From: a virus
Taxonomy: Duplodnaviria; Caudoviricetes
Virus record (IMG/VR): IMGVR_UViG_3300015606_001334
Coordinates: 160,001 to 224,000 of that record
Reading direction: 5' to 3' (one strand)
Length of the DNA: 64,000 nucleotides
Positions 14,290 through 64,000 of the stretch are shown here, piece by piece (within the stretch, counting starts at the first letter, position 1; every line of letters begins with the position of its first letter). The translations under genes were made by a program, and so were the position numbers. The notes below the pieces were generated by a model. The model searched no databases. It saw only the letters and a list, made by a program, of their open reading frames with translations, and was not told the origin of the DNA.

Positions 14290-15384
14290 TTAGAGATTAC
14301 CAACCAACTTTTGCACGATGAATGAGTGATCTTCGAACATCATGTTTTCCATTTGCTTGAACTCAGCAAGAGGGACCCATTTGACTCGAGTTACATCACA
14401 TTCAGGATCGGTGTTACCTTGCTGTGAACCCTTGACTTTCGGCAGACCTTCTGGAACGGCATCCAAAGCGAAGTAGAAACCGAAGGTAACGGTACGACCG
14501 CGAAGAGAACGCTCAGGATCGTCGAAGTAATCGCGATTCTTGACTGAACCACGAAGTTTGGCTTCAGGAACCTTGATCTTCGTTTCTTCTTGCAGCTCAC
14601 GGATGACGGCATCGAAGATACGTTCTTTCGGATTCACGAAGCCGCCAGGCAGAGCCCAAAGACCTTCACCAGGCATAGCACCACGACGGACAAGAAGAAT
14701 GTGACCGGCTTGGATTACCACTGCATCAACAGTGATAAAAGTCGGTTCATAAGGAGCGGCTTCCCAAGCGCCCTTATACTTCTTGACATGTTGGTATTCT
14801 GATCGGAAACGGTCAGCTTGATCGCGCTCAGTCGAGAAGAATTCTTCGATCCAGTGCATTGCTGCACGAGGGATGTCATTGCGAATCGATTCAGGAAGAG
14901 CGTGAACGTTCAGGTAACCAGTGGATTCAAACAGGAAGTTGCGAATTTCAGTTGCGTTGATCTTGCCGAATTCTTCGATTTCGACACGTTCCCACTGAGG
15001 GAAAAGGTCAAGGTAGAAGGAGGTGTGATCACGCTTGAAACCGATGATGCCGATCTTTGCATCATCTTTGTCGGTCTTGACGTTGACGACAGCTTGAACT
15101 TCAGACAGCCAAAGTTCATCGTTGTACGGATAGTCGTGGATCGGTACGACCTTGACGCGCTTTTGTGAAATGCCTTCATCCTTGAGAACGGCACGAATCA
15201 TGTTTTCACGTTGTTGTGCAGTCCACGGGTTACGGATGTTATTTGCGCGATTGCTACTGCCAAGAAGAATGAGAACTTCATCAGCTTGGTCGAGAGCGGC
15301 CTTCAGAGTTTGAAGGTGACCGTTGTGAAATGGTTGAAAACGGCCGATGTAGACGATGCTGTCGAACTTGCGAGTCTTAGACAT
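14290..15384 (-). CDS. nadM: bifunctional NMN adenylyltransferase / Nudix ADP-ribose pyrophosphatase (NadM-Nudix, NatV-like)
   Basis: YIGRFQPFHNGH, RNPW, INATEIR; Nudix box GGFVNPKERIFDAVIRELQEET; RSLRGRTVT, FEDH. Confidence 0.95.
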   Translation of the reverse strand: MSKTRKFDSIVYIGRFQPFHNGHLQTLKAALDQADEVLILLGSSNRANNIRNPWTAQQRENMIRAVLKDEGISQKRVKVVPIHDYPYNDELWLSEVQAVVNVKTDKDDAKIGIIGFKRDHTSFYLDLFPQWERVEIEEFGKINATEIRNFLFESTGYLNVHALPESIRNDIPRAAMHWIEEFFSTERDQADRFRSEYQHVKKYKGAWEAAPYEPTFITVDAVVIQAGHILLVRRGAMPGEGLWALPGGFVNPKERIFDAVIRELQEETKIKVPEAKLRGSVKNRDYFDDPERSLRGRTVTFGFYFALDAVPEGLPKVKGSQQGNTDPECDVTRVKWVPLAEFKQMENMMFEDHSFIVQKLVGNL

Positions 15385-15385
15385 A

Positions 15386-15444
15386 TATAGAGCTCCTCTA
15401 TAAATATTGATAAATTGTTGGTCTTTCCAACAGGAATATTTATT
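15386..15444 (-). promoter_or_regulatory. two-hairpin leader element, copy 3 (nadM-Nudix)
   Basis: mRNA: AAUAAAUAUUCC-UGUUGG[AAAGA]CCAACA-linker-UAUAGAG[GAG]CUCUAUA-U-AUG. Confidence 0.8.
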
Positions 15445-15471
15445 GTATCAAGACTTCAAGAGATTGTAAAC
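15442..15471 (-). promoter_or_regulatory. early-type promoter GTTTAC-N18-TACAAT
   Basis: Recurrent motif directly upstream of the leader element. Confidence 0.65.
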
Positions 15472-15864
15472 ATGAAAATCACAGAAATTCACCAAGCAGA
15501 TCTTGCCGAACCAACACATGAGGTTCCACTGTCAAAAGCTGAGCAGCTTGACGAGATCCTTTTGTTCTTCAGAGAGAACCCTTCCGCTGGCCGCAAAGAT
15601 CTTCTAGCTCTAAACAAAGCTCTTGGTGTTTCAGAGGAAGAAGTTGAGAACCTTGAGTTTGAACTTTGCAAAGCCCTATGCTCACGGATTGGCAAGAACG
15701 TCAACCATGGCGATGAAAAGGTAGACGAAGCTGAGCTAGAAAAGGGAGTTCAACACGAGATGGAACATACCAACGATCAGTATATCGCAAGATTGATCGC
15801 TCTTGACCATCTTTACGAAATTCCAGATTACTACACCCAACTAGCTAAGTTTGACAAAGATTAA
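15472..15864 (+). CDS. hypothetical protein (DUF5661-like C-terminus)
   Basis: ELEKGVQHEMEHT...IALDHLYEIPDYYTQL; TATAAATA at 15399-15406 on + strand; start set at MKITEI. Confidence 0.65.
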   Translation: MKITEIHQADLAEPTHEVPLSKAEQLDEILLFFRENPSAGRKDLLALNKALGVSEEEVENLEFELCKALCSRIGKNVNHGDEKVDEAELEKGVQHEMEHTNDQYIARLIALDHLYEIPDYYTQLAKFDKD

Positions 15865-16634
15865 AACTTCGCTTGACGCTCAAGGTTAGCATCCACCAAA
15901 GCATCTTGGGCGTCAAAAATATCCCCACCAGATTTTTCAATTTGATCAAGAATATCGCCAGCCCGAGCAAGCGATGAATCTTCATTGCCGGTTCTGTAGG
16001 TGAGTGACTTAATTTTGAAGGTTGGGATCTTCATTAGACTTAGAAGACCCTCTTCAACTGGACTAGCGTTGATCTGAAGGTGCTCAAGTTTTGGTGCTTT
16101 CTTTTGGATGCCAGCTAAGGTCTTAATCCCAGTTGCGCAAGCGGTAATTCTAAGAATCGTTGATGGTAGATAATCCATCTCTTGAAGATTTCTGCAGAAG
16201 CCAATGTTTAGATACTCAGCGTTCTCTGCAATACCTTTTAGCGAAACCAGATTCTTACACTGATCCGCATAATACGTGTTGGTGTATTCCTTATTTGAAG
16301 TGCCAACAAGTTTTGGTCCGCCTTCAAGACTGGTGATATGAGTGTAGCTGCAATTGAACCCTTCACCAACCTCGTCTGGACATCCTTCAAGAGTAGTCAA
16401 AGGAGTATTCTGAATGTGGAATCTTCCAGTCACCTTCTTGAACTTTACAGGCAACTTAGTGAATGACATTTTGGTTAAGTCAACAGATCCTTCTACAGTA
16501 ACTTGAAGGTTGTCGTCGACAGTAAACTCACCATCAATTCTTCGACCCCTTTTCTTTACCCACTCTTGTACCTTTTCTTTAGTGTCAAGGTCAGGAGTTT
16601 TTCTCTCTTCAGAAATTAGATCGGCAATTCTCAT
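15861..16634 (-). CDS. LRR-like protein, paralogue family member 1
   Basis: LTTLEGCP/ITSLEGGP/LVSLKGIA repeats; C-terminal DIFDAQDALVDANLERQAKF. Confidence 0.8.
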   Translation of the reverse strand: MRIADLISEERKTPDLDTKEKVQEWVKKRGRRIDGEFTVDDNLQVTVEGSVDLTKMSFTKLPVKFKKVTGRFHIQNTPLTTLEGCPDEVGEGFNCSYTHITSLEGGPKLVGTSNKEYTNTYYADQCKNLVSLKGIAENAEYLNIGFCRNLQEMDYLPSTILRITACATGIKTLAGIQKKAPKLEHLQINASPVEEGLLSLMKIPTFKIKSLTYRTGNEDSSLARAGDILDQIEKSGGDIFDAQDALVDANLERQAKF

Positions 16635-17686
16635 TGCTTTGCTGCCTTTTCGTACCCAAGATCTAACAATTCATCTTGTACATCTAGAAGGTCAGCTTGG
16701 TTCTTTATGACCTTATTTAGCAAATCGAAAACGTTCTTTATTTCTTTGTCTTTCAAAAGACGAGTATCTCCATTCTTATCAATTGAGACAGCTTCGTGGC
16801 AAATTTTTGGCAATGACAACAATGGCATTTGAAGAGGATTCACCTTAAAGTAGACGAATCTAATATTGTTACCGCTCATAGTCTTAGCTATCTCTTTAAA
16901 GTTTGGATTCGGAGATTCGATCACAATCGAGAGCAATCCTGACGAGAAGAATTTTTCCAAACCTTTGTACGACTTAATATTCTCTCCGCGAATGATGAGC
17001 TTCCAAATACCTTCAACCCGACCAATATCAACGTTTGGTCCAAGCTCTGGGTTATTTCCAAAATCTAGAACGGTCAAACCAATTTTACCACCAGCCTTGG
17101 CGTTAATCAATACTTGACCTTCATCCATAGAGATATATTTGTCATCTTTTTCTGCGCCTTCCTGATAAATTCTGAATCCTTCAGGGAAGCCAAACTTCTT
17201 CATTCTTTCGTCTACAGCCGCTAGACCACCTGCCTTTTTATCATTCTTACGATCGTATGAATTGATGACAGACTGTAAAGATTTCTTCAAGTTGTCAAAT
17301 AAAACTTCAACGGCCTTTGATGGATCATCAAGTTGAGTTGGCTGAAGAGTCGGAATAGGTGATGCGATAAACATTTTGTTATTGTATCCGCCACGGTTAG
17401 CTCTTCTTGCTTGTCCTGTAGCATAACAAGTTATTTGTGTATTTCCGTCTTCAGATTCAAAATACATGGTAGCTCTCTTTTCTTGTAGAGCTGAAGACTT
17501 ATACACGAACCCAAGACCGACAACCTTCTGATACTCACTTGACTTTTTAGCCTTATTCATCGCAGCAGTAATGTCTGCTAGTTGAATGTCGTTGAGTTTG
17601 ATGAAATCAATAATTGATGACTTGTTCTTTTTCTTGGTCAAGTCATAGTCAATTTTATAGGCTTCTAGTAGATTTTGCAGTTTCAT
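16631..17686 (-). CDS. paralogue family member 2 (shared C-terminal module, unrelated N-terminus)
   Basis: N-term MKLQNLLE; C-term DLLDVQDELLDLGYEKAAKQ; TAAATA box upstream. Confidence 0.75.
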   Translation of the reverse strand: MKLQNLLEAYKIDYDLTKKKNKSSIIDFIKLNDIQLADITAAMNKAKKSSEYQKVVGLGFVYKSSALQEKRATMYFESEDGNTQITCYATGQARRANRGGYNNKMFIASPIPTLQPTQLDDPSKAVEVLFDNLKKSLQSVINSYDRKNDKKAGGLAAVDERMKKFGFPEGFRIYQEGAEKDDKYISMDEGQVLINAKAGGKIGLTVLDFGNNPELGPNVDIGRVEGIWKLIIRGENIKSYKGLEKFFSSGLLSIVIESPNPNFKEIAKTMSGNNIRFVYFKVNPLQMPLLSLPKICHEAVSIDKNGDTRLLKDKEIKNVFDLLNKVIKNQADLLDVQDELLDLGYEKAAKQ

Positions 17687-17721
17687 GGTGGTTAACCTGT
17701 AGGTATTCTTGTCTTATTTAC

Positions 17722-18489
17722 TTAAAGCTTAGCAAACTCTTTAAAACCGTCAGCATAAAGCTCTTCTTGACAGTCGTACATCGCATCTTCATTTGGATTA
17801 GAATTCATCAAATGATTATTGATGATAGTCCATGGACCATATTGAGCATACGATTTAGAAATGTTTCCTATGCCAGCCTTAACTTGGCTAATCCCTGGAA
17901 TAAGGAAAATCCCAAGAACTGCCTCTTCTAGGAAGCATTCACCTTCAGGGCCAATCATAATCGTTCCGCCTAAAACGTCTTTATTGACGATATTTGCGGT
18001 GTAGTTAAACTTCTTGATGTACTTGTGGATGTTATGGAGAGACTTTAGACCTCTACATCTTCGAATGTTTAGAGCACCAAGTTCTTCAGAGATTCCTTCA
18101 AGAGAAGTAAGCCTATCACAAGCGCCTATGAATAGTGATCCGCCAACAATTTTCGGACAGCCTTTCAAGGAAGTAATGTCATTCCCCTTTAGGTTCAAGT
18201 TACCTTCAACCTCGTCAGGGAAATTTTCAAGTGTCTTAAGCTTTGAGTCGTTCACAATGAAATTATTGGTGACCTTCCCAAATTTGAATGGTAGTTTATC
18301 CATCTTTAATCCATGGAAATCTACCATTGCGTCGATATCGACAGCACCGTCATTTCTGAAAGTCACATAATTTCTGCTAATGTCAAGCTTCTTCTCAATG
18401 AAGTCGATAATCTCTTCTTCAGTCTTGAGTTCTTTATTGAAGACTGGAGCCGAAGCCCCAGTCTCATTTATTAGTCCACTTAGTTTCAT
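17722..18489 (-). CDS. LRR-like protein, paralogue family member 3
   Basis: LKTLENFP/ITSLKGCP/LTSLEGIS/LKSLHNIH; C-term DAMYDCQEELYADGFKEFAKL. Confidence 0.8.
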   Translation of the reverse strand: MKLSGLINETGASAPVFNKELKTEEEIIDFIEKKLDISRNYVTFRNDGAVDIDAMVDFHGLKMDKLPFKFGKVTNNFIVNDSKLKTLENFPDEVEGNLNLKGNDITSLKGCPKIVGGSLFIGACDRLTSLEGISEELGALNIRRCRGLKSLHNIHKYIKKFNYTANIVNKDVLGGTIMIGPEGECFLEEAVLGIFLIPGISQVKAGIGNISKSYAQYGPWTIINNHLMNSNPNEDAMYDCQEELYADGFKEFAKL

Positions 18490-18490
18490 A

Positions 18491-20350
18491 TCATTCGAAG
18501 TATGTGACGTTCTTTGCTACTTGTTTCAATTGCTTACACATCGCTTCAAATGTGCGACGGGAATCAAGGATGACGAAGATGTTACGATTTTCAGTAATAA
18601 GCTTCTTGATGTTTTCAAAGTTTTCACCATAAAGAATATCCGAGTCGGACATGATCAATAGGTTAAACTTCTTATGCGCAAGTTGTTCAGCTTCATGAGT
18701 AAGCTGATCGCTGAAATTCGTTGACGATCCAATGTGCTTAGAGAACAGTTCCTTCACACTTCCAGTCTTTTCTTCCTTGGACTTGTCAAATACTGAGCTT
18801 AGCTCCTTGTATTTGTTTTGAACAAAGTTACACTTGTAAATGTGGTGATTAGAGGAGAACTTAATTAGGAAGAACTCGCTCTTGCGGACGTTCGCTTTGC
18901 TCTTCATTAGGTTATGAAGGTTAGCGTAAACCTGATCGATCACGGAGGTCATAGAGCCAGATGAGTCGACGATGAATCCCATCTTAATGTCGCTATCAAG
19001 TGTGATCTCACCTGGCTTCATAGCAGCAGCGCCGGTCTGTCGAGCCAAGTCGACACCAGTGATGTTACGTCTATGCGGCTTCTGGAATGTCTCATCAACG
19101 TTATTGCTGGCGTCAGTGATCATCTTAGACAAGAGCTTTTTCCAAGTAAAGGTTGGCTTGATCTTGGAATAGTCGAAGGTTGTTCCTTCACCGTCTCTGC
19201 CACCGCTTCGGCCGCCACGACCACTACCTTGGCCTGCTGAAGAGGACTTCTTGTCATCCTTTGGTGCGTCTTCTTCCTTATCGATTTCCTTACCGCCAGA
19301 AATCTTCTTCTCGATGTCTTTGTTGTTCTTATCTAGTTCGTCAAAGACGTCATCGCCGTCACCCTCAGACGATTTATTTTTGTCGTCATTTTGGTCTCCA
19401 TCACCCTTCTGAGGTTTTCCGCCGCCTTCACCTGGTTCACCAGGCTCGCCTTGATCGTGATTGTCACCAAGGCCGTCCATCATGTTCTCGACCTTTTCTT
19501 GTTGGTCTTTGTTTAGCTTTTCGAACTCTGCCTTGACGATGTCGTACATTTCTTTGTAGGACTTCTGTCTGTCATAGTTGACGTGATCGCTGAAAAGACC
19601 GATAGGAAGCTGTTCAAAGCCACTCTTAACAAGAAGATAATTCGTTCTGAAGTCGCCAACCCAATTGATAATCTTTGGGTTTGCCTTAAGCTTTTTCTGG
19701 TAATGGAAGTCAGCATAAGTATAATGCATGAACTCGTGAATGATCAAGAATTCAATGTAAGCATACTCATCTGGAATTTCACCGCCATTGCTGGCATACT
19801 TCTTGCCCTTCGGAGTTATTCCTTTGAGGTGAGCGTAGTCAATTAGCTTCTGCATGAATGGTTTGCAGAAGATAAATTCGCCAGTCGGTGTAGCCGCAGC
19901 AGTGTCCACATCATTGAACTTCTGATGTTCAGGCTTAGTAGACGGAACTAAGATGATGACTGGATTGTAGAGATACTTGTGATCAATGAAGTTGCGAAGC
20001 GGGAAGAACTGATCATGCTCGATCTTAATGAAGCGGAGAAGCTTTGAGAAGATCTTCACGTCAAAGCGTGGTGCCTTATCAGCAATCTTATGCTTCTCGA
20101 TCAGGTTAAAGATTTCCTGCTCGACGATATTCTTCTTAATGGTATCGTAAAGGATCGGAGACTTCTTAGCGATGTCATCAAATTCTTTGATTCGATCTTC
20201 GACCGCCTTAATGAGTTCTTCCTTCTTTACGCCATACTTGTTGACTATTTCGTCGATGATCTTTTTGACGTGAGGATCATCGAGGGAGGTCGCTGAGAAC
20301 TTGACCTCCCCGAATTCTCTACGTTTGTTGTCAAACGCTTCGTTAATCAT
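18491..20350 (-). CDS. putative metallopeptidase (HEXXH) plus vWA domain protein (DUF2201-like)
   Basis: VDTAAAT, LIIHEFMHY, acidic/Gly linker, FIVDSSGSM MIDAS, IMSDSD. Confidence 0.85.
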   Translation of the reverse strand: MINEAFDNKRREFGEVKFSATSLDDPHVKKIIDEIVNKYGVKKEELIKAVEDRIKEFDDIAKKSPILYDTIKKNIVEQEIFNLIEKHKIADKAPRFDVKIFSKLLRFIKIEHDQFFPLRNFIDHKYLYNPVIILVPSTKPEHQKFNDVDTAAATPTGEFIFCKPFMQKLIDYAHLKGITPKGKKYASNGGEIPDEYAYIEFLIIHEFMHYTYADFHYQKKLKANPKIINWVGDFRTNYLLVKSGFEQLPIGLFSDHVNYDRQKSYKEMYDIVKAEFEKLNKDQQEKVENMMDGLGDNHDQGEPGEPGEGGGKPQKGDGDQNDDKNKSSEGDGDDVFDELDKNNKDIEKKISGGKEIDKEEDAPKDDKKSSSAGQGSGRGGRSGGRDGEGTTFDYSKIKPTFTWKKLLSKMITDASNNVDETFQKPHRRNITGVDLARQTGAAAMKPGEITLDSDIKMGFIVDSSGSMTSVIDQVYANLHNLMKSKANVRKSEFFLIKFSSNHHIYKCNFVQNKYKELSSVFDKSKEEKTGSVKELFSKHIGSSTNFSDQLTHEAEQLAHKKFNLLIMSDSDILYGENFENIKKLITENRNIFVILDSRRTFEAMCKQLKQVAKNVTYFE

Positions 20351-22926
20351 TACTTGATGCCCTTAATAAATTGAGCAATGCTGATGTTGAACTCTAGTAG
20401 CTCATCCATGTAGTCAGCGCCATGCTTGTCCTTGATGTGACGTAGCGCTTCACGGACAGCGAGGCGGATAATTTCACGGTGATCGTTAGATAGCTTATGG
20501 ATTTCGATAGCGTTGACCATTTCGCGGATCAAGTGTTCGAACTTAGACACTTCTTGATTTTCGAATTCGATCTGATCGTTCTTGACAACCTTACCCTTAT
20601 GCTTCTTCTCAATTAGCTTGTCCTTGACATCTTCGTCCTTTTCAAACTGAGCTAGCAAGAAGCCAGCTAGTTCTTCCTTGAACTTCTGAGGATCATGGTT
20701 TTCAATGAAGCTTACGAAGTCCATATCATCTGCTAGGTGTGCATCATCGCTTGGGTTCTGGAAGAACGAGCCAAGGATGGAGCCGACGTCGACAGTCTTA
20801 GCCTTCTTGTAGTACAAACCTTCACCGAAATCAATCTCACTAGAATGTAGGAACCAGTCCTTCAAGTCATGCAAGAACTCAGGAGATTGAACCTGTTGCT
20901 TGGTGAAGATGTTGGATAGCTTATGCTTGAACGAGTCGTACAGGCCGGTGCGTAGCTTAGATTCGGTCTCAGCGATCTCGTCGTTGGTCATGTCAGCGAC
21001 GTTCTTGCGCTTCAATAGACGATTGAACTTTTGATCGAAGTCGATGACTGCGTTGCCATAAAGGTCAGAGTACTCACGAGGAGAAATGTAGACTGGTTGA
21101 GCGCCGATATCTAGGTAGAACGGCTTCTGAGCATTCTTGATCTGGCTAGAAGAGGTCTTCACACGGAACTTGTCAGAGAACTTCATCAACACGTCGTACA
21201 CAACTTCCTTAGACTTCTCGTTCTTTAGAGAAGTGAATGGCATGTTCTGTAGGTACTTCTTGGTCTTTTCGAAGTCTGCTTTAGAGTCGATAACATCAAC
21301 AACGTCACGCATGTGGTGGGTCAAAGGTTCAGCACCGTGGTCAGAAGGGTTAATTGCTGAGATGATGACAGAGCCCTTTGGTAGATCATAGCCGCCACCG
21401 AAAGACTTTTCTAGTAGAACACGACGAATACCGTTGAAGACCTTTGCGGAGTTACGGTTCAATTCGTCGAAGAAGATTAGGTACTTCCACTCTTTGTCTT
21501 GATATTCCTTGATTGCCTTCTTAGCTTCATCACCCTTTAGGGAGTGCTTCAAGAATTCAATATGGTCAGCATCTGCTTGCTTCGCATCATTAAGGATCTG
21601 GTGGTAAAGAGTTGGTTCAGAGAACTGAGTTTCGATATTCTTCTTCTGTTTACCATTGCCCTTTGGAAGTGGTAGACCGACGACGTCTTCTGGATTCAAG
21701 TTAGAACAGTCGACGTAGATATAGCGTAGGTCTAGATCCTTAGCGATCTCGACAGCGTGAGTGGTCTTACCGATACCTGGAGCGCCAGATACGATTGGGA
21801 TGTACTTACGATGTTCACCAAGCTTCATCTTCTGCTTGATCTGATGCTCAAGGGTATCTTGCCATTCTTCTTCGGAGTTTTCCTCAGTTGAAGAGATATC
21901 GATATCAGAAGTTTCTTTGATTAGTTGAGAGACTGCGTCTAGCACTTTAGCTGCTAGGACAGACTTTTCACCGGTCAAATAGTTCTTGAAGTTCGCTTTG
22001 ATGTTGGTGAGAAGGCTCTTTGCTTCTTTTTCGTTCTCTACAGGTAGCGAGCTGTTGATGTAAAGAAGGATTTGTTCCCAACGACGTGGAGAGGTACGAA
22101 CCTCATGATTGACGTCGTCATGGTTAAGCTCTTCCTCTTCTAGGAGGTCATAGAACTTCTGAATGATCTTTGGATTTAGCTTGACCTTCTCATCTTTTTC
22201 GAACTTAGCTAGTAACCAAGAGAACCATTCGTCCTTGTTTGGTGCTTCAAAGTCGATTTGCTGGAAGTCATTGTTTGCTGGGATTTCGCCTACGCCCTCG
22301 TCATTCATGTTAGATGCGTAGATAACGAAAGCACCTGGAGGAATGTCGTGAGAACCGATCTTTCCGTTTAGGATGCCACGTAGCATGTTGCGGATCTTAG
22401 TAGAGGTCTGACGATAGTATTCGTCAAGGAACAAGATCACATTGCGGTGGTCACGGGCTTCACTGATAACTTCTGGGATTGTATCCTTATCGCCACCTAG
22501 TTCTTCAAACACCTTGATCACGTCAGCACTTGAACGATAGATGTTCTGAAGGTACTGCTTGTCAGTAATCTTTTTGGTCGCCTTTAGGCTACTGAACAAA
22601 TGGGAGTCTGATAGAACAACCTTGAAATCGCTAACTTCGAATTCAGTTTCACCTGGCTTTTCAGACTTGGTGACTGGGTCGTAAACGATAAATGGGATAT
22701 TGATGATGTGTTCTTCAGTGATGTGTGGAGCTTCAATGGTGATAAGCTCTAGACCGACCAAAGTGGAGAAGAATCTGATGAAGGAGGTTTTACCTACACC
22801 AGGATCGCCTGCCAAAAGGATGCCGGATTTGCTCACTGATTGTTGTTGGCCCTTCATGTTGGCCAAAATTCGTTCAGATATGTCAATACGCTGATCGAAT
22901 GAGCTTGAGGATGCGTTGATGTCCAT
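20350..22926 (-). CDS. tandem (double) MoxR/dynein-related AAA+ ATPase
   Basis: Two modules: GDPGVGKT/LFLDE/YASN/TSPRRW and GAPGIGKT/IFFDELNR/SAIN/ISPREY. Confidence 0.88.
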   Translation of the reverse strand: MDINASSSSFDQRIDISERILANMKGQQQSVSKSGILLAGDPGVGKTSFIRFFSTLVGLELITIEAPHITEEHIINIPFIVYDPVTKSEKPGETEFEVSDFKVVLSDSHLFSSLKATKKITDKQYLQNIYRSSADVIKVFEELGGDKDTIPEVISEARDHRNVILFLDEYYRQTSTKIRNMLRGILNGKIGSHDIPPGAFVIYASNMNDEGVGEIPANNDFQQIDFEAPNKDEWFSWLLAKFEKDEKVKLNPKIIQKFYDLLEEEELNHDDVNHEVRTSPRRWEQILLYINSSLPVENEKEAKSLLTNIKANFKNYLTGEKSVLAAKVLDAVSQLIKETSDIDISSTEENSEEEWQDTLEHQIKQKMKLGEHRKYIPIVSGAPGIGKTTHAVEIAKDLDLRYIYVDCSNLNPEDVVGLPLPKGNGKQKKNIETQFSEPTLYHQILNDAKQADADHIEFLKHSLKGDEAKKAIKEYQDKEWKYLIFFDELNRNSAKVFNGIRRVLLEKSFGGGYDLPKGSVIISAINPSDHGAEPLTHHMRDVVDVIDSKADFEKTKKYLQNMPFTSLKNEKSKEVVYDVLMKFSDKFRVKTSSSQIKNAQKPFYLDIGAQPVYISPREYSDLYGNAVIDFDQKFNRLLKRKNVADMTNDEIAETESKLRTGLYDSFKHKLSNIFTKQQVQSPEFLHDLKDWFLHSSEIDFGEGLYYKKAKTVDVGSILGSFFQNPSDDAHLADDMDFVSFIENHDPQKFKEELAGFLLAQFEKDEDVKDKLIEKKHKGKVVKNDQIEFENQEVSKFEHLIREMVNAIEIHKLSNDHREIIRLAVREALRHIKDKHGADYMDELLEFNISIAQFIKGIK

Positions 22927-23169: not shown

Positions 23170-23240
23170 GTGGGTCCCCAAATGGTTGATCATGTATTTA
23201 TGAATGAAGTATTTATTCGAATCAAAGGGACCACGCAATA

Positions 23241-59493: not shown

Positions 59494-60228
59494 TTACTTT
59501 CTTACCCAATCGGTCATATCAGCGTCAATGAAATCACTTTGCATATCAAGTACATCACGATCACCCTGCAAATGGTCATTGATTATTTGTTGGGCTTTAT
59601 TGATTTCTGTTGCAGCTGAAGTTCCACCATAGTTATGGACGAATTTTACCTGCTCTAAACCTTCAACTTGTAGGAGCTCTAAAACTCCTCTTTCGATTGG
59701 ATCGCATTGTAGGACCGAACCCATTATCCAATTCTTCGAAATCCCAGTGAAGGTTGTAATCTTATTTCCGTGGATGATTAATTCACCGCACTGAGATGGG
59801 ATACCGTCCCAATCTTTAAGTTGGTTGTCCGAGACATCACATCTATCTTGAACCGAGCCGGCCATACCTTCAAGAGATTCAATGCCGAGCCCTGGTACGC
59901 TGTAACGGCCATAGACGGTTATTGGGCCATTCTTCAATGAGCGAAGCTTTTCTCTACCATTAGTGATAATAATGAAGTTGCCATTTACTTCTCCAAATTG
60001 GTAAGGTAAGTAGCACATGTTGTCATCATCCAGTGGAAGATCATTGGCACGGATTCGAACGCTCTCTTGACAATTGATTACGAAATTCTTACCTTCTTTT
60101 TCAACTCGAATATTCCGTACTTTGACACTTGCACACCAATCTTCGATTTCCTGTTTGGTTAAACGATCATGCTCATCGCCCCAATCAGATTCGTTTAGGG
60201 TTTGTTTGAAAATTGCGGATAGTTTCAT
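59494..60228 (-). CDS. LRR-like protein, paralogue family member 4
   Basis: LRSLKNGP/IESLEGMA; C-term DVLDMQSDFIDADMTDWVRK. Confidence 0.8.
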   Translation of the reverse strand: MKLSAIFKQTLNESDWGDEHDRLTKQEIEDWCASVKVRNIRVEKEGKNFVINCQESVRIRANDLPLDDDNMCYLPYQFGEVNGNFIIITNGREKLRSLKNGPITVYGRYSVPGLGIESLEGMAGSVQDRCDVSDNQLKDWDGIPSQCGELIIHGNKITTFTGISKNWIMGSVLQCDPIERGVLELLQVEGLEQVKFVHNYGGTSAATEINKAQQIINDHLQGDRDVLDMQSDFIDADMTDWVRK

Positions 60229-61151
60229 ATTTTTGCCAATTCTGTAAATCCTGCGTCTACGAGTTCTTCTTGGAACTCAAAAACGTCGTGTGAGCCAATA
60301 TACTTTTCGACGATTGGAATGATTCCATCAGTCGGCCAAGACTTGTCTTCATTGTTTACGTCATAGAATGATTCTTCAACTTCATTTAATCCGTTGATCA
60401 TTGCCAGACCTAAAATTGAAGAAAAGATTTTGGTCTGATAAAGAGTAATTCGTTTTGCCGATTTGACGTATTTATGAATGTTATGGAGTGATGTTAATTT
60501 AGGTAGTTGATCTAGCGACAGCGTGTCTACTTCCTTCGGTAGATCTTTCAAATTGTCGTTAGTGAAATGCTCAGTTGAAGAAAGATTGAAGTTACCTAGC
60601 TTTTCTGGAATGCCAGAAAAGTCTTTAAAGTTTTTGCAGAATCTAATTGACAGATTCATGTCATTGCCGATTTTAGTTGGGAACCCTCTAATAGATTCTA
60701 TTCCATCACAAGCGAAAACTGAAAAAGATGAGTTAACCTCTTCTGGGCCACCAACAAGGTCTTTAACGGTACTATCTAAACCTTGTTCTTCAATAGTGAA
60801 CACTTCACACGAGCGAGGAACTCCAGCAAGAGATTTAAGCTTACAGCCTTGAGAAATAACAAATGCTGTTTTTACATCCTTAAACGGAAACGGCATTTGA
60901 CCATCAACCAGCATCCAATCTTGAATTTGGATTCTATCAACTCTATGGTGCCAATCGATACTAACAGTAACGTCATCATTAAACTTTACTGAAGCGTCCT
61001 CAAATAGGTCGCTAAACATGGGCATCATGACCTCTCCAGAATCTGGATCAACACATATCTTTGCGTAGATCTTTTTCAATTCCTCGACTGTCTTTGGCCA
61101 ATGAGGAAGTTTCTGGGATTCAATAAGGAAATGTTTAAATGTCTTTTTCAT
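60225..61151 (-). CDS. LRR-like protein, paralogue family member 5
   Basis: LKSLAGVP/IESIRGFP/LTSLHNIHKY; C-term DVFEFQEELVDAGFTELAKI. Confidence 0.8.
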   Translation of the reverse strand: MKKTFKHFLIESQKLPHWPKTVEELKKIYAKICVDPDSGEVMMPMFSDLFEDASVKFNDDVTVSIDWHHRVDRIQIQDWMLVDGQMPFPFKDVKTAFVISQGCKLKSLAGVPRSCEVFTIEEQGLDSTVKDLVGGPEEVNSSFSVFACDGIESIRGFPTKIGNDMNLSIRFCKNFKDFSGIPEKLGNFNLSSTEHFTNDNLKDLPKEVDTLSLDQLPKLTSLHNIHKYVKSAKRITLYQTKIFSSILGLAMINGLNEVEESFYDVNNEDKSWPTDGIIPIVEKYIGSHDVFEFQEELVDAGFTELAKI

Positions 61152-61777
61152 AGTCTTGCGTACTCTTCAAAACCTAATTCTAATAGTGCGTCTTGGCAAT
61201 CGAAAATATCTCCGCCTTCATAGTCTGGACTAGCAGGCAAGTACTTAGCAATAAGCTCTTCAAAGTCAAATCCACGTTGACCATTTGCGCCTCCGGCAGC
61301 TTTTCTCCAATCTGCTCCCATAGACAGTGCAGTTACACCTTTAATCTTTAGGATACCAAGAATGTGAGATTTGATCTTATTTCCATCACAGTAAATTTTA
61401 CCATTGATTTCTGTGAAGTGTTTATCTATACCTTTGAATGAATTGAAATGACAGTTTTCACCGAACATTATTGTCGATCTAATAATCTTTGGGAACTTAC
61501 TGAAGTCATTAACAATTTCATCGCCTGTTACGAAAAACAACCCGGACCCAATGTTGAGATTGAAATTCTTTGAGTCATAAAATTTGATAAACTTAGTTAA
61601 CTCATCAAAGTCTGAAGAACGTAAACGTAACTCTTTATCTAAAGAAACACTTTGGAAATCTTCTTGGTGCTGGTCAAGAAATTTTTTAACTTTATCAGAT
61701 ACAGTATTACCAACAGGGAAAGTCTCGTAATAACCAACTTGATTAGTCTGGTTTTCGAACAAGTTAAATAATTTCAT
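61148..61777 (-). CDS. paralogue family member 6
   Basis: FNSFKGIDKH...ILGILKIKGV; C-term DIFDCQDALLELGFEEYARL. Confidence 0.8.
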   Translation of the reverse strand: MKLFNLFENQTNQVGYYETFPVGNTVSDKVKKFLDQHQEDFQSVSLDKELRLRSSDFDELTKFIKFYDSKNFNLNIGSGLFFVTGDEIVNDFSKFPKIIRSTIMFGENCHFNSFKGIDKHFTEINGKIYCDGNKIKSHILGILKIKGVTALSMGADWRKAAGGANGQRGFDFEELIAKYLPASPDYEGGDIFDCQDALLELGFEEYARL

Positions 61778-62574
61778 AGTCTTGCCTGCTTTTCAAAACC
61801 CGCGTCGATGAGCTTGTCTTGAACTTCAAATACGTCGTCTTCGCCTTGGATACTCGCCTCGATGATCTCGCACCATCCCATACTTCTGTCTGCCAAATCC
61901 CATATGATAGTCTTTAGGTTTTTGACAAGCATAAGATTCAATCCACATTCCTCAATCACTTGGCGTTTTCTACCATTGAAGAGAATCAATTCAGCTTTAG
62001 ACTTTTCTCCAAATTTGACATATTTGTGGAAGTCATGGAATGACTTAATAGCGGTATCTGTGATGTTTAGATTACCAAAAATAGTTCCCAATCCTTTTAC
62101 TGACTCTAGCTTTGGGCAATCTGATAGAATAACCGTTCCAGTGTAGAGCATTTGCCCTTGTTCAGAAACTCTTTCAAGTTCTTTACATTGTGCAAATGAA
62201 ACAGGCCCTTCACACTGAAAACCAATAAGCCCAAGGTAATCAAGGTTCTTTAGTGACCAACAATGTTCAAAATTAGCAGTACCTTTTACCCATTTAGGAG
62301 CCCCTTCGACAGACTTCAGCTCCTTATTCATTGAGCAATGGAAATGCCCGGTAACGATGTTGAATCTGAAAGGAAGATATTCAAGAGATAATGCTTTGAG
62401 ATTCACGTTTCCTTTTACGTTTACCGCAGGCCCAAAAGCGGTATCAACAATTTGACAATTGGCAATGCCGCCTTCAATACATTCTTCGAAATCCCAAAGG
62501 GCTTTCTCAGTATCTTCTTTAGTCTTAGGAAGAGGAGCTTTCTCTTCCTTTAGGAAACGTTTAAATGAAATCAT
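61774..62574 (-). CDS. LRR-like protein, paralogue family member 7
   Basis: LKSVEGAP/LESVKGLG/IKSFHDFHKY; C-term DVFEVQDKLIDAGFEKQARL. Confidence 0.8.
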   Translation of the reverse strand: MISFKRFLKEEKAPLPKTKEDTEKALWDFEECIEGGIANCQIVDTAFGPAVNVKGNVNLKALSLEYLPFRFNIVTGHFHCSMNKELKSVEGAPKWVKGTANFEHCWSLKNLDYLGLIGFQCEGPVSFAQCKELERVSEQGQMLYTGTVILSDCPKLESVKGLGTIFGNLNITDTAIKSFHDFHKYVKFGEKSKAELILFNGRKRQVIEECGLNLMLVKNLKTIIWDLADRSMGWCEIIEASIQGEDDVFEVQDKLIDAGFEKQARL

Positions 62575-62575
62575 T

Positions 62576-63043
62576 TTACTGGTTCACGATTGGGCCATTA
62601 CCTTCGGCCATCATTTTCAAAAGTTGATTACGATCTGCCACTACAACGTTGTTAGTGGTTTGGTTTGCATAAGGAACGAAACCACCTGCAGATTTCTTAC
62701 GCTCATTCTTCACTTTAGCACGTAGAGCCACTGCATTTAGAGCAGTGTTCAAGTATCCCGCAGCAACTTCTGCGTTTCTTGCGGCATAACGTGGTTCAAG
62801 AATTTCAACAAATGCAGTTTGATTCTGATAAGCAGACATTGCTTCGCCGTAAATGGTGTCGATCTTCTTGTTGATTTCTTTATCTTCTTCGTCGGGTTCT
62901 GCAACAGGAGCCGGAAGATTAGCTTCAGTGGTTGCTAAATATTGATCGTCATCGATTGTGGTTAGATCAGTTCCTTCAAGAGGATCTGAATTGTAAGTAT
63001 CATCTAGACCGAATGTGTCTTCTAGGGGGTGTTTCATTTTCAT
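62576..63043 (-). CDS. terminase small subunit (T4 gp16-like), putative
   Basis: PRYAARNAEVAAGYL...TNNVVVADRNQLLKMM resembles gp16 central helix and C-terminus; upstream of terL. Confidence 0.6.
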   Translation of the reverse strand: MKMKHPLEDTFGLDDTYNSDPLEGTDLTTIDDDQYLATTEANLPAPVAEPDEEDKEINKKIDTIYGEAMSAYQNQTAFVEILEPRYAARNAEVAAGYLNTALNAVALRAKVKNERKKSAGGFVPYANQTTNNVVVADRNQLLKMMAEGNGPIVNQ

Positions 63044-63052
63044 GTTTTCTCC

Positions 63053-63550
63053 TTATGCAATATGAACAGCTTGTCTATATTTCTGAATATAGCCCATGGT
63101 GAAATCAATTGCATCATGAACAATCTTAAGATCTTCTTTGTTTTTACCAAAGAACCACTTCTTGAAATCGTCAAATCTACGCTCAACAATAGTCTTAAAG
63201 CTCATGAAGTGGTTATCATTGTAAGTGTTGAGAATCTTTTCAATTCCCTTTTCGACTTCACCCTCATTTGCGTGATCCATATCATTGTTATCGACTAATC
63301 GCTTGAAACCGATTAGGTCAGTAGGATCAATCTTCTTAGCTTGAACGAAACGGAAAAACTGTTCAAAAATAGCAACGATCTTAAGATAGTGATCAACTTT
63401 ATGGTTGTCGAGCTGCTCATCTTCTTTTAAAAGCTCAACAAGCTTTTTCTTTAAAACAGACAAAATATCTAGAATGTTTTCTTCCTGAATCTGCTCAATG
63501 AAACCTTCAAAAAGATCATTTGCGAGATATTGTTTTAATGTGAATTTCAT
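63053..63550 (-). CDS. hypothetical late protein, possibly virion-internal
   Basis: MKFTLKQYLANDLFE N-terminus; ATAAATA at about 63577. Confidence 0.65.
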   Translation of the reverse strand: MKFTLKQYLANDLFEGFIEQIQEENILDILSVLKKKLVELLKEDEQLDNHKVDHYLKIVAIFEQFFRFVQAKKIDPTDLIGFKRLVDNNDMDHANEGEVEKGIEKILNTYNDNHFMSFKTIVERRFDDFKKWFFGKNKEDLKIVHDAIDFTMGYIQKYRQAVHIA

Positions 63551-63579
63551 TTTGATTCCAATTCAATAACTTAGGCTAT

Positions 63580-64000
63580 TTATGCTAACAGAAGATCAAG
63601 CACTTTATGAAGTGCTTCTTTTCTTATAGCTAAATACTCATCACATTTAATCATTACTTCATGTTGTTTAAAATCTCTAAATTTGACAAGATCTGTTCTT
63701 AGTGAGTCATCATCGCAATGATAGTCAAGTGAATCCATAAATTCTTGGAATTCTTTGAATTCAGTGTTTGACACTGGAACTTTATCTAAATCTTCGTCGT
63801 CTCTATGACGATTGTTAAACTCTTGAGCAGAATAAGTAAAGTCTTCAACCTTAGGAGACCAACAAAATGTCACTCGGTCTAAAGGAAACACTGCGTAAAC
63901 ATCACCATATGATTCAGCTAGACTAGTCGAACGAGAAACGAAAATAGATTCTGATCTAAATTTTGTTCCAAATTTGTGTTTAAAATAGTCATCAGCAAGC
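63580..64000 (-). CDS. hypothetical protein, probably truncated by window edge
   Basis: ORF track 63580..63891; frame appears to extend upstream. Confidence 0.5.
   Translation of the reverse strand, partial: LADDYFKHKFGTKFRSESIFVSRSTSLAESYGDVYAVFPLDRVTFCWSPKVEDFTYSAQEFNNRHRDDEDLDKVPVSNTEFKEFQEFMDSLDYHCDDDSLRTDLVKFRDFKQHEVMIKCDEYLAIRKEALHKVLDLLLA

What the first reader, a model, noticed from the sequence alone, without database searches (positions are those of the whole stretch)
59494..62574. Seven-member diversified family (mostly LRR-like) with a conserved C-terminal module, in two late arrays
Seen: four genes here and three at 15861-18489 differ strongly in their N-terminal and repeat regions but end in the same roughly 80-aa module. 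The module reads (S/T)hxxhxK...hhxLhxhxxh...DhhDxQxxLhDxGhxxxA(K/R)h-stop, e.g. DVFEVQDKLIDAGFEKQARL, DIFDCQDALLELGFEEYARL, DLLDVQDELLDLGYEKAAKQ. Most carry LxSLxGxP repeats. Both arrays lie downstream of ATAAATA/TAAATA late boxes, one between terS and terL. Inference: a variable-recognition, constant-adaptor repertoire, such as anti-defence binders whose common tail is either an LRR cap or a docking site for one partner.
Basis: partly seen in the sequence, partly recalled or inferred. Interest (0 to 1): 0.78.

Follow-up and report, generated by a model that had tools for sequence, protein, structure and literature searches.

The report
Phage head-cargo LRR protein family
An uncultivated 360-kb jumbo phage encodes 16 diverged leucine-rich-repeat proteins that all begin with a phage-T4-style "load into the capsid, then clip" tag and end in the same ~85-residue module. 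They are therefore probably a varied protein cargo packed into the virion, not ordinary cytoplasmic proteins.

Summary
The seven ORFs belong to a 16-member family in this 359,550-bp IMG/VR phage.

Each member has four parts:
- a ~8-12-residue leader (MKLxxLhE|) that closely resembles the T4 IPII/IPIII capsid targeting sequence;
- a variable N-domain;
- 0-6 LRR turns (AlphaFold pLDDT 91.8);
- a constant, self-folding C-terminal module that always ends the protein.

The module was found only on phage contigs. In a second phage, eight tandem paralogs keep near-identical leaders and tails despite synonymous changes, so both ends are under selection.

Supporting context:
- The genome has a gp21-type prohead protease.
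- Its major capsid protein N-terminus carries five (L/I)xE sites.
- The family genes lie in units headed by ATAAATA late-promoter-like boxes.
- In the nearest isolate, Ralstonia phage RsoM2USA, a full-length member (ORF89) and the ortholog of the neighbouring AAA+ ATPase (ORF86) are among ten published virion protein bands.
- An HExxH-vWA gene is flanked by family genes in most lineages examined.

Best reading: late, capsid-packaged and probably ejected LRR binders. The partner of the tail is unknown.

This scan has flagged T4-like leaders before on other DNA, and other readers flagged this family and leader in this genome. I found no paper describing the family.

The parts
59494..60228 (-). 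Family member, 244 aa. Leader MKLSAIFKQTLNE, LRR body, divergent tail ending ...QSDFIDADMTDWVRK.
60225..61151 (-). Family member, 308 aa. Leader MKKTFKHFLIE|S, the longest LRR body in this array, tail ...FQEELVDAGFTELAKI.
61148..61777 (-). Family member, 209 aa, with few LRR turns. Leader MKLFNLFE|N, tail ...DCQDALLELGFEEYARL.
61774..62574 (-). Family member, 266 aa. Leader MISFKRFLKE|E, tail ...VQDKLIDAGFEKQARL.
62576..63550 (-). Two upstream genes of the same late unit. The 165-aa gene (63053-63550) has a leader-like N-terminus, MKFTLKQYLANDLFE.
63577..63583 (-). ATAAATA late-promoter-like box, 33 nt before the start of the 165-aa gene that heads the unit with the four-gene array.
15861..16634 (-). 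Family member, 257 aa, and the protein that was modelled. Leader MRIADLISE, N cap, about 5-6 LRR turns, C module at residues ~169-257.
16631..17686 (-). Family member, 351 aa, with a long divergent N-terminal part and basic charge (pI 9.0). Leader MKLQNLLE|A.
17722..18489 (-). Family member, 255 aa. Its start codon abuts the stop of the HExxH-vWA gene. Leader MKLSGLINE|T.
18491..20350 (-). Neighbour: 619-aa protein with a putative metallopeptidase domain (DUF2201_N, HEFMH) and a vWA domain with an intact MIDAS motif (DxSxS, T, D). Its N-terminus MINE|AF has an invariant E-x-F in all six homologs aligned (A4); the alanine is invariant only among the three closest (A3).
20350..22926 (-). Neighbour: 858-aa tandem AAA+ ATPase. 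It is 54% identical to RsoM2USA ORF86, which is reported in virions.
23195..23216 (-). Two ATAAATA boxes about 270-290 nt upstream of the AAA+ start. They probably head the AAA+/vWA/three-LRR unit.

Best explanation
These genes encode a family of capsid-packaged cargo proteins.

Proposed steps:
1. They are transcribed late, from T4-type ATAAATA promoters.
2. The ~8-12-residue N-terminal leader works like the T4 capsid targeting sequence and takes the protein into the scaffolding core of the prohead.
3. The gp21-type prohead protease removes the leader after the (L/I)-x-Glu motif.
4. The mature, mostly acidic 20-38-kDa protein stays in the head with the DNA.
5. It is probably ejected into the next host cell, as T4 IPI-III and Alt are.
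6. There the variable LRR surface binds a target, each paralog a different one.

The constant ~85-residue C module consists of two alpha/beta LRR-like turns and a helical hairpin, with a strictly positioned tail D-h-h-D-C-Q-x-E-L-I-D/E-A-G-h-E-E-Y/F-A-K/Q-L-stop. It caps and probably nucleates the solenoid. Because its polar positions are conserved too, it probably also serves as a common handle for one phage partner. The best candidate partner is the neighbouring, virion-associated AAA+/HExxH-vWA pair.

Shown here: the family, its four-part architecture, the predicted fold, restriction to phage contigs, selection on both ends, the presence of the protease, and the promoter motif. Taken from the literature: virion presence of one homolog. 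Inferred: targeting, cleavage, ejection, target binding and the partner of the tail.
For: Leader:
- T4 IPII and IPIII start MKTYQEFIAE|A, and IPI starts MKTFKEF... (read from NC_000866).
- Family members start MKKTFKHFLIE|S, MISFKRFLKE|E, MRFKEYLLE|A and MKLQNLLE|A. Non-family neighbours start MKLTFKEFLAE|A and MKLTFKDFLKE|S.
- 46 of 487 genes match the leader pattern, against 9.8 +/- 3.0 (maximum 22) in shuffled N-termini. One of them is a Zeta-toxin/CPT-like kinase, so the leader is portable.

Protease:
- A Peptidase_S77 (gp21) homolog is present at E 1.5e-27. Its own N-terminus is MNSQLLIE|Q.
- The gp23-like capsid protein has five [LI]xE motifs in its first 39 residues.

Late timing:
- 84 of 133 ATAAATA copies lie within 80 nt upstream of genes in sense orientation, with a peak at -40 to -31.
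- These include the boxes before TerL and the protease, and before the units that carry family genes.

Virion:
- RsoM2USA ORF89 (28.56 kDa) is a full-length member (hhalign probability 99.6%, E 9.6e-24).
- ORF89, together with ORF86, is one of ten virion bands identified by LC-MS/MS (PMC8504454 section 25).

Constant ends under selection:
- In a 244-kb wastewater phage contig, eight paralogs follow the capsid gene directly.
- Their last 20 residues are 97% identical and the first 20 alignment columns, which hold the leader, are 70% identical, while the middle is 12-57% identical.
- In the last 75 nt, third codon positions are only 64% identical against 89-93% at positions 1 and 2.

C module:
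- It is always C-terminal (107 of 107).
- The conserved Gln lies 15 residues from the end in 76 of 101 proteins.
- Polar and hydrophobic positions are both conserved.

Leader in relatives: 119 of 139 family genes in IMG/VR loci carry it.

T4 precedent: diverse internal proteins that share only a capsid targeting sequence, with IPI* injected as an anti-restriction factor (PMC3012670, PMC9958956).
Against: - No protein of this phage has been observed.
- The RsoM2USA assignment comes from excised gel bands that the authors say 'most likely correspond' to those ORFs. It does not show where in the virion the protein sits, or whether it is processed.
- By the regex, four of the 16 members lack a clean (L/I)xE. 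One of these is an artefact of the long 241452 ORF start, because the 241542 start gives MKLSSLLE|A. The three real exceptions start at genome 1406, 228368 and 290491.
- Folded LRR solenoids of 20-38 kDa are much larger than T4 IPI* and would probably have to unfold to pass through a tail tube.
- Most members are acidic (pI 4.7-6), unlike the DNA-associated T4 internal proteins.
- Targets are wholly unknown.
- The leader pattern is short and loose. About 10 of the 46 matches are expected by chance.
Confidence: 0.55

Rival explanations
1. Clients or adaptors of the AAA+/HExxH-vWA machine. In this reading the constant acidic tail is the docking handle, for example on the vWA MIDAS site, as in other MoxR-vWA systems. 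The ATPase-peptidase pair would load, unfold, process or refold the LRR proteins. This is compatible with capsid packaging and may be the role of the tail within the best explanation.
For: - The order AAA+, vWA, three LRR genes is kept in a relative whose vWA protein is 68% identical (the gene itself was fetched through a 52%-identical LRR ortholog).
- RsoM2USA has three LRR genes, a small ORF, then AAA+ and vWA. Its trio is not orthologous to the window's trio.
- Among IMG/VR loci found with the vWA protein (41-52% identity), family genes lie within 10 kb in 5 of 6 distinct lineages that have enough flank. In several they are the next genes downstream, and one locus has 14 paralogs.
- Two further loci found through the family show the same arrangement.
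- XacN1, PA5oct and RAS14 lack both the family and the vWA protein.
- HExxH and the MIDAS residues are invariant.
- The AAA+ ortholog is a virion band in RsoM2USA.
Against: - Most family arrays (13 of the 16 genes here) are not next to the pair.
- The lineages compared share ancestry, so neighbourhood counts are not independent.
- With about five family loci per ~350-kb genome, roughly 0.3 of loci would lie within 10 kb of any given gene by chance.
- No physical evidence of contact exists.
Confidence: 0.3
2. Purely structural cap. In this reading the C module is only the C-terminal cap and folding nucleus that lets a fast-evolving solenoid stay stable. The proteins would be late cytoplasmic binders that are not packaged, and the N-terminal similarity to the T4 tag would be coincidental or serve translation.
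For: - Residues 1-70 of the module superpose weakly on terminal alpha/beta LRR turns of F-box/LRR proteins, SDS22 and LANP (Z 2.7-4.8).
- In the full model the module continues the solenoid.
- LRR proteins generally need caps. C-terminal caps can be folding nuclei, as for PP32 (my own knowledge, not checked here).
Against: - The tail is far more conserved than the LRR core positions of the same proteins, including acidic and Gln positions.
- It sits at a fixed distance from the C-terminus.
- It was not found in cellular LRR proteins.
- It occurs on members whose N-terminal parts do not match the LRR profile.
- A member is reported in virions.
- The leader is shared with unrelated proteins.
Confidence: 0.1
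3. External virion parts. In this reading the constant module anchors alternative LRR host-recognition heads onto fibres or the baseplate, giving a multi-receptor-binding repertoire.
For: - One member (genome 290491-291045) lies between 1,201-aa and 2,609-aa proteins.
- The eight-gene array in the wastewater phage is followed by a 3,113-aa protein.
- A constant anchor with a variable binding domain is the usual design of branched receptor-binding systems (my own knowledge).
- LRR domains are proposed host-recognition parts in phage Goslar (bioRxiv 10.64898/2026.04.21.720040).
- Virion presence in RsoM2USA fits this reading too.
Against: - A cleavable T4-type capsid-targeting leader makes sense only inside the prohead.
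- The same leader is on a kinase-like protein and on the vWA protein.
- A 28-kDa protein visible among the ten strongest Coomassie bands suggests hundreds of copies, as for internal proteins, rather than a few fibre tips (inference).
- No fibre-like or trimerisation features are predicted.
Confidence: 0.08

Closest known systems
Phage T4 internal proteins IPI, IPII, IPIII and Alt, carrying the capsid targeting sequence (CTS) and processed by gp21
   Same: - A ~10-residue N-terminal leader of very similar sequence: T4 MKTYQEFIAE|A against MKLTFKEFLAE|A and MKKTFKHFLIE|S here.
- A Glu-terminated (L/I)xE site.
- A gp21-family protease in the genome.
- Late promoter boxes.
- Otherwise diverse proteins that share the tag.
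- One homolog reported in virions.
   Different: - T4 has three internal proteins plus Alt, none of them an LRR protein. Here about 16 LRR paralogs plus roughly 20 other tagged genes are found.
- These proteins are larger and mostly acidic.
- They carry a second constant element at the C-terminus that T4 cargo lacks.
- Packaging, cleavage and ejection are untested here.
Bacterial type III secreted LRR effectors (YopM, IpaH, SspH1, SlrP)
   Same: - Short (20-22 residue) bacterial-type LRR solenoids, which are the best structural matches (Z 13.5-14.4).
- The concept of a translocated repeat protein whose concave face binds a host protein.
- Multi-copy paralog sets in one genome.
   Different: - No NEL ubiquitin-ligase domain and no type III secretion signal.
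- Sequence identity is only 13-17%.
- The caps differ.
- The carrier is a phage, and delivery, if any, would be through the phage tail.
LRR multigene families of giant eukaryotic viruses and entomopoxviruses
   Same: Large, fast-diverging paralog arrays of small LRR proteins in a big viral genome. These appear as weak fold matches in BFVD.
   Different: - No shared sequence signature.
- Those families lack the leader and the C module.
- The hosts are eukaryotes.
MoxR AAA+ / vWA chaperone pairs (RavA-ViaA, CbbQ-CbbO, NorQ-NorD)
   Same: An adjacent AAA+ ATPase and a vWA protein with an intact MIDAS motif, next to candidate client genes. In known systems the vWA MIDAS engages an acidic residue of the client (my own knowledge).
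   Different: - The ATPase here is a tandem two-module protein.
- The vWA protein carries an HExxH peptidase-like domain and a CTS-like N-terminus.
- The ATPase ortholog is virion-associated.
- No client relationship has been shown.

Membership tests
Leucine-rich repeat (LRR) superfamily | Tandem 20-29-residue repeats with an LxxLxLxxN-type hydrophobic pattern | tested here: met
   A repeat of 20-21 residues with consensus L-x-S/T-L-x-G-x-P-x-x-V-x-G-x-F-x-C-x-x-N-x is visible in alignments A1 and A2.
Leucine-rich repeat (LRR) superfamily | Curved solenoid fold with a parallel beta-sheet on the concave face | tested here: met
   AlphaFold model with pLDDT 91.8 and pTM 0.86. VIA-align Z 14.6 to internalin C2 (193 residues aligned, rmsd 3.6), 14.4 to YopM and 14.0 to the IpaH1.4 LRR.
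Leucine-rich repeat (LRR) superfamily | Match to a curated LRR profile (Pfam) | tested here: inconclusive
   No window protein reaches a Pfam cut-off; the best is LRR_EndoS at E 0.057. Some metagenomic relatives carry PF12799 LRR_4.
T4-type capsid-targeted internal (cargo) proteins | N-terminal ~10-residue capsid targeting sequence resembling MKTYQEFIAE | tested here: met
   T4 IPII, IPIII and IPI N-termini were read from NC_000866. Family leaders are listed. 14 of 16 members match the pattern, which is enriched genome-wide (46 genes against 9.8 +/- 3 expected).
T4-type capsid-targeted internal (cargo) proteins | A gp21-family prohead protease and (L/I)xE cleavage sites in head proteins | tested here: met
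   PF03420 hit at E 1.5e-27. The capsid protein has five [LI]xE motifs in its first 39 residues. Actual cleavage was not observed.
T4-type capsid-targeted internal (cargo) proteins | Late expression together with head genes | tested here: inconclusive
   ATAAATA boxes head the units that carry family genes, and also precede TerL and the protease. No transcript data are available.
T4-type capsid-targeted internal (cargo) proteins | Physical presence inside the mature head, with the leader removed | not testable with these tools
   The only evidence is indirect. The RsoM2USA homolog ORF89 is among the virion bands identified by LC-MS/MS (PMC8504454). Its location and N-terminus were not determined.
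T4-type capsid-targeted internal (cargo) proteins | Ejection into the host with the DNA | not testable with these tools
   No data.
IpaH/SspH-type NEL effectors | C-terminal novel E3 ligase (NEL) domain after the LRR | tested here: not met
   The proteins end about 85 residues after the LRR, in a module with no Pfam hit and no structural match above Z 4.8. There is no room for the large (~300-residue) NEL domain.
MoxR-vWA client | Conserved genomic linkage to an AAA+/vWA pair | tested here: met
   Linkage is seen in the window, in L012, in RsoM2USA, in 5 of 6 IMG/VR lineages found with the vWA protein and in two more loci.
MoxR-vWA client | Physical binding of the client to the vWA or AAA+ partner | not tested
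   No binding experiment or informative model is available.

The most novel reading that the evidence does not exclude
Jumbo phages of this group may carry a dedicated protein-delivery system. It would combine a repertoire of a dozen to several dozen interchangeable LRR 'warheads', each addressed to the capsid by a T4-type leader. Each would also be recognised, through a universal C-terminal handle, by a co-packaged AAA+ unfoldase and peptidase-vWA adaptor. That machine would thread or refold the warheads during loading or ejection. This would be a phage counterpart of secretion-system effectors with a chaperone or ATPase.
Probability: 0.15. Interest if true: 0.9.

Novelty: new variant of a known kind. 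Interest (0 to 1): 0.72.

Why it matters
T4's capsid targeting sequence and its few internal proteins are a textbook curiosity. Here the same tag appears on a large, fast-diversifying family of protein-binding LRR scaffolds. The family is widespread in uncultivated large phages, with 107 module-bearing proteins among the 264 best database hits and arrays of up to 23 genes in 20 kb.

If these proteins are packaged and injected, large phages deliver a varied set of target binders at the first moment of infection, before any phage gene is expressed. That would be an unexplored layer of host takeover or counter-defence.

The fixed leader and tail also give a simple sequence signature for finding such cargo in metagenomes. 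The cultivable phage RsoM2USA offers a direct experimental system. The conserved link to a virion-associated AAA+/vWA-peptidase pair points to a packaging or delivery machine with no described equivalent in phages.

Tried and rejected
- Pfam and PHROGs on the seven proteins gave nothing significant.
- blastn of the array against 50,697 phage records found no match.
- tblastn with single members found only a 634-kb uncultured phage and RsoM2USA, both weakly.
- Foldseek against PDB with the full model gave only weak LRR hits at E >= 3e-3. VIA-align was needed to get clear matches.
- For the C module alone, Foldseek PDB gave nothing below E 1.5 and VIA-align gave a best Z of 4.8. No known domain could be assigned. 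This does not show that the fold is new.
- Complex prediction with the HExxH-vWA protein (alignment A4), an LRR member (A2) and Mg returned 'no answer' with a score of 0.00. It is not used as evidence either way.
- The search for related loci with the single vWA protein found no relatives. Smaller alignments worked.
- Literature searches found no description of the family. The searches covered LRR with jumbo phage, LRR with ejection proteins, CTS with huge phages, and the genome length. The MoxR/vWA/virion search gave nothing relevant.
- The careful maximum-likelihood tree did not finish. Only the quick tree was used, and its long branches make deep nodes unreliable.
- The idea that identical ends reflect only recent gene conversion was rejected for the L014 array, because synonymous sites differ. 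It was not examined for the 30-bp repeat noted by another reader in this genome.
- The idea that the ELIE/ELID in the tail is a second protease site was set aside, because Asp is as common as Glu at that position.


Full report
**What is there**

The window is positions 160,001-224,000 of a single 359,550-bp contig. The contig is an IMG/VR virus record rated 100% complete, with 42.9% GC. It is a jumbo phage. Near the arrays it encodes TerL, a gp32-like SSB, UvsX, a radical SAM enzyme and an NMNAT-Nudix protein. Its TerL is closest to that of Ralstonia phage RsoM2USA (44%), followed by XacN1 and PA5oct-like phages.

The seven ORFs named in the finding exist as described and align over their full length. 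A profile of their last ~95 residues recovers them at E 2e-35 to 2e-28 and finds nine more genes at E 2e-21 to 7e-9, with a clean gap to noise at E 0.4. Iteration and a six-frame search give the same 16 genes. In genome coordinates they are:
- 1406-2293;
- 175861-178489 (three genes);
- 219494-222574 (four genes);
- 227116-229530 (four genes);
- 241542-242342;
- 245059-246698 (two genes);
- 290491-291045.

No Pfam or PHROG family covers them.

**Architecture**

Alignment A2 and the regional identities show four parts:
- a leader of 8-13 residues (32% mean pairwise identity);
- a variable N-domain (15%);
- 20-21-residue LRRs with consensus L-x-S-L-x-G-x-P-x-x-V-x-G-x-F-x-C-x-x-N (22%), ranging from almost none in the 184-200-aa members to about six;
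- a C-terminal module whose last 22 residues are the best conserved part (40%).

AlphaFold2 models window:15861-16634 with pLDDT 91.8 and pTM 0.86. The model has an alpha/beta N cap, a solenoid, then two beta-alpha turns and a helical hairpin. Residues 1-10 have low confidence (pLDDT 53). VIA-align gives Z 14.6 to internalin C2, 14.4 to YopM, 14.0 to IpaH1.4 and 13.6 to SspH1 and SDS22. This is a generic bacterial-type LRR fold with 7-17% identity. BFVD and ESM Atlas neighbours are unnamed phage proteins, in clusters that are 94-100% viral.

**The C module**

Folded alone from 44 diverse sequences, the last 89 residues give pLDDT 93.2, so the module is a self-contained unit. Its first ~70 residues resemble terminal alpha/beta LRR turns only weakly (best Z 4.8). 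The final helix and tail match nothing.

Among 264 database relatives, 107 carry the module, and in all 107 it ends the protein. The conserved Gln lies 15 residues from the C-terminus in 76 of 101 proteins. Almost every position from -5 to +14 around it carries 1.6-3.5 bits, polar ones included.

A pattern scan of one genome for each of 185,579 prokaryotic species found a single relative. It lies on a 330-kb contig of a Pseudobdellovibrionaceae MAG that also holds five family genes. A gp21-type protease lies on contig 2 of the same assembly, which by its accession should be this contig. The contig is therefore probably a mis-binned jumbo phage. So the module is not a generic cap of cellular LRR proteins.

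In RsoM2USA and in IMG/VR relatives, some members match only the module part of the profile. By eye, their N-terminal parts do not look like LRRs. I did not fold these.

**The leader**

I took the lead from other first-stage notes on this genome and tested it.

T4 IPII and IPIII begin MKTYQEFIAE followed by Ala, and IPI begins MKTFKEF. The first ten residues of IPIII are the capsid targeting sequence. gp21 removes such N-terminal peptides, cutting after Glu (PMC9026906, PMC9958956).

Family members begin MKKTFKHFLIE|S, MISFKRFLKE|E, MKTTFKKLLINE|S, MRFKEYLLE|A, MKLQNLLE|A and similar. Neighbouring non-family genes begin MKLTFKEFLAE|A and MKLTFKDFLKE|S.

A loose pattern for this leader matches 46 of 487 genes, against 9.8 +/- 3.0 in shuffled N-termini (maximum 22). 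Of the 46, 14 are family members and about 20 are clear look-alikes on other proteins. One of those is a Zeta-toxin/CPT-like P-loop kinase.

The genome encodes a Peptidase_S77 (gp21) homolog (E 1.5e-27) whose own N-terminus is MNSQLLIE|Q. T4 gp21 activates by removing nine N-terminal residues. The gp23-like capsid protein has five [LI]xE motifs in its first 39 residues. Among IMG/VR relatives, 119 of 139 family genes carry such a leader.

**Timing**

ATAAATA occurs 133 times, and 84 copies lie within 80 nt upstream of a gene in sense orientation. The peak is at -40 to -31, and TATAAATA is a subset. In the window, 17 copies are found against 7.7 +/- 2.7 expected.

The boxes precede TerL, the prohead protease and the radical SAM gene. 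Three family genes have one directly upstream (1406, 241542, 245059). The rest lie downstream in tightly packed units headed by a box. In the window these are at 63577-63583 for the four-gene array and at 23195-23216 for the AAA+/vWA/three-LRR unit. This matches the T4 late promoter consensus (my own knowledge). I have no transcript data.

**Evidence from relatives**

A profile search of RsoM2USA finds about ten members. XacN1, PA5oct and RAS14 have none.

RsoM2USA_89 is a full-length member (hhalign probability 99.6%, E 9.6e-24). It starts MKTFKQFLSE|S. Its computed mass of 28.56 kDa matches 'ORF89, 28.57 kDa'. The RsoM2USA paper lists that ORF among ten bands of purified virions identified by LC-MS/MS. 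The same list includes ORF86 (96.44 kDa; computed 96.43) (PMC8504454 section 25). ORF86 is 54% identical to the window's 858-aa tandem AAA+ protein, and ORF85 is 45% identical to the HExxH-vWA protein. The paper says the bands 'most likely correspond' to these ORFs. It gives neither location nor termini, so this is supportive rather than conclusive.

In a 244-kb wastewater phage contig, eight paralogs follow the gp23 gene directly. Their first eight residues (MKIRELFE) and last 20 residues (...IIDCQNELIEAGFEEYAEL) are almost identical, while the middle is 12-57% identical. In the tail codons, third positions are 64% identical against 89-93% at positions 1 and 2. The ends are therefore held by purifying selection on the protein, not only by recent gene conversion.

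A quick tree shows mostly lineage-specific expansions. The wastewater array and the RsoM2USA trio each form their own clade, while the window's trio is 1:1 with that of a closer relative (quick method, long branches).

One 360-kb IMG/VR contig has 23 family genes in 20 kb.

A full-profile search of 1.84 billion cluster representatives gives 16,287 hits at E <= 1e-3. Many of these are generic LRR matches in long proteins, so that number does not measure the family.

**The AAA+/vWA neighbours**

The vWA protein has a DUF2201_N putative metallopeptidase domain. HExxH and the MIDAS residues (DxSxS, T, D) are invariant across six homologs. The N-terminus MINE|AF is conserved as (L/I)xE|(A/G)F, so this protein may itself be a processed head protein.

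Starting from vWA homologs at 41-52% identity, family genes lie within 10 kb in 5 of 6 distinct lineages with usable flank, often as the next genes downstream. The same holds in the window, in L012 and in RsoM2USA, and in two loci found through the family. The three isolates that lack the family also lack the vWA protein.

This linkage is better than the roughly 0.3 chance expected for a multi-locus family. The lineages are related, however, and most family arrays are elsewhere. I treat a functional link as plausible (about 0.3) and unproven.

**Interpretation**

The most economical reading is that these are T4-style head cargo proteins built on an LRR scaffold. They would be made late, addressed to the prohead core by the leader, trimmed by the gp21-type protease and kept in the virion. 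This is consistent with the RsoM2USA band. By analogy with IPI* and Alt (PMC3012670), they would be delivered into the next cell, where the variable concave faces bind different targets.

The constant module is at least a cap. Four features argue for an added shared interaction:
- conservation of its exposed-type residues;
- its fixed position at the C-terminus;
- its restriction to phages;
- its occasional attachment to non-LRR N-terminal parts.

The AAA+/vWA pair is the leading candidate partner.

Points against this reading:
- Nothing is measured for this phage.
- Three members lack a clean cleavage motif.
- The proteins are acidic and large for passage through a tail tube, so unfolding would be needed. 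T3SS LRR effectors do unfold for transport (my own knowledge).
- 'Anti-defence' is a guess.

**Novelty**

The LRR fold, the CTS/gp21 mechanism and MoxR-vWA pairs are all known. I found no description of the following:
- a large, phage-restricted LRR family carrying the T4 tag;
- its universal C-terminal module;
- its linkage to a virion-associated AAA+/peptidase-vWA pair.

This scan has already reported CTS-like leaders in several other huge phages. Other first-stage readers noted this family and the leader in this genome. The leader phenomenon as such is therefore not new to the scan.

Noticed in passing
window 18491-22926 (-): A tandem two-module AAA+ ATPase (858 aa) is translationally coupled to a 619-aa HExxH (DUF2201_N) plus vWA (intact MIDAS) protein. 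The ATPase ortholog is a virion band in RsoM2USA. The vWA protein has a conserved CTS-like N-terminus, (L/I)xE|(A/G)F. A virion-packaged MoxR-like machine would be unusual in its own right.
   Followed up: partly
whole genome; window copies listed: ATAAATA behaves as a T4-type late promoter box. 84 of 133 copies lie within 80 nt upstream of genes in sense orientation, with a sharp peak 31-40 nt before the start codon.
   Followed up: partly
genome 219494-229530 (window 59494 onward, and L002): A ~10-kb 'cargo island': two four-gene LRR arrays flank six or seven other small genes. Six of these carry the same T4-like leader; the 155-aa gene at 222576-223043 does not. One (L002:1954-2727, 257 aa) is a Zeta-toxin/CPT-like P-loop kinase.
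   Followed up: partly
genome 262926-264131 (-) and 265584-266204 (-): The gp23-like major capsid protein has five [LI]xE motifs in its first 39 residues. The gp21-like prohead protease starts MNSQLLIE|Q. Both are preceded by (T)ATAAATA boxes.
   Followed up: partly
   Followed up: partly
L030 (CAZFPB010000002.1, 330,120 bp): This contig is binned as an uncultured Pseudobdellovibrionaceae MAG. It carries five family genes, and the same assembly has a Peptidase_S77 prohead protease on contig 2, which by its accession should be this contig. It is probably a jumbo phage genome mis-binned into a bacterial MAG.
   Followed up: partly
L054, L059, L062 (IMGVR_UViG_3300009709_000002, 360,227 bp): A different ~360-kb phage contig has at least 23 family genes within 20 kb, the largest array seen.
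   Followed up: no
L026, L021 and proteins P0052, P0064, P0080, P0100: A sub-family ends in ...AG(Y/F)xxNA(R/K/S)W instead of ...EEYAKL and starts with a different N-terminus (for example MVDT...). It is also found next to the vWA gene.
   Followed up: no
window 14290-15864: An NMN adenylyltransferase-Nudix fusion (364 aa) and a DUF5661 protein lie just downstream of the three-gene array. The same order is kept in the relative L012.
   Followed up: no
genome 241452-242342 (+), L003:3452-4342: The longest ORF starts 30 codons too early. The ATG at 241542 gives the family leader MKLSSLLE|A and has an ATAAATA box at -32.
   Followed up: yes
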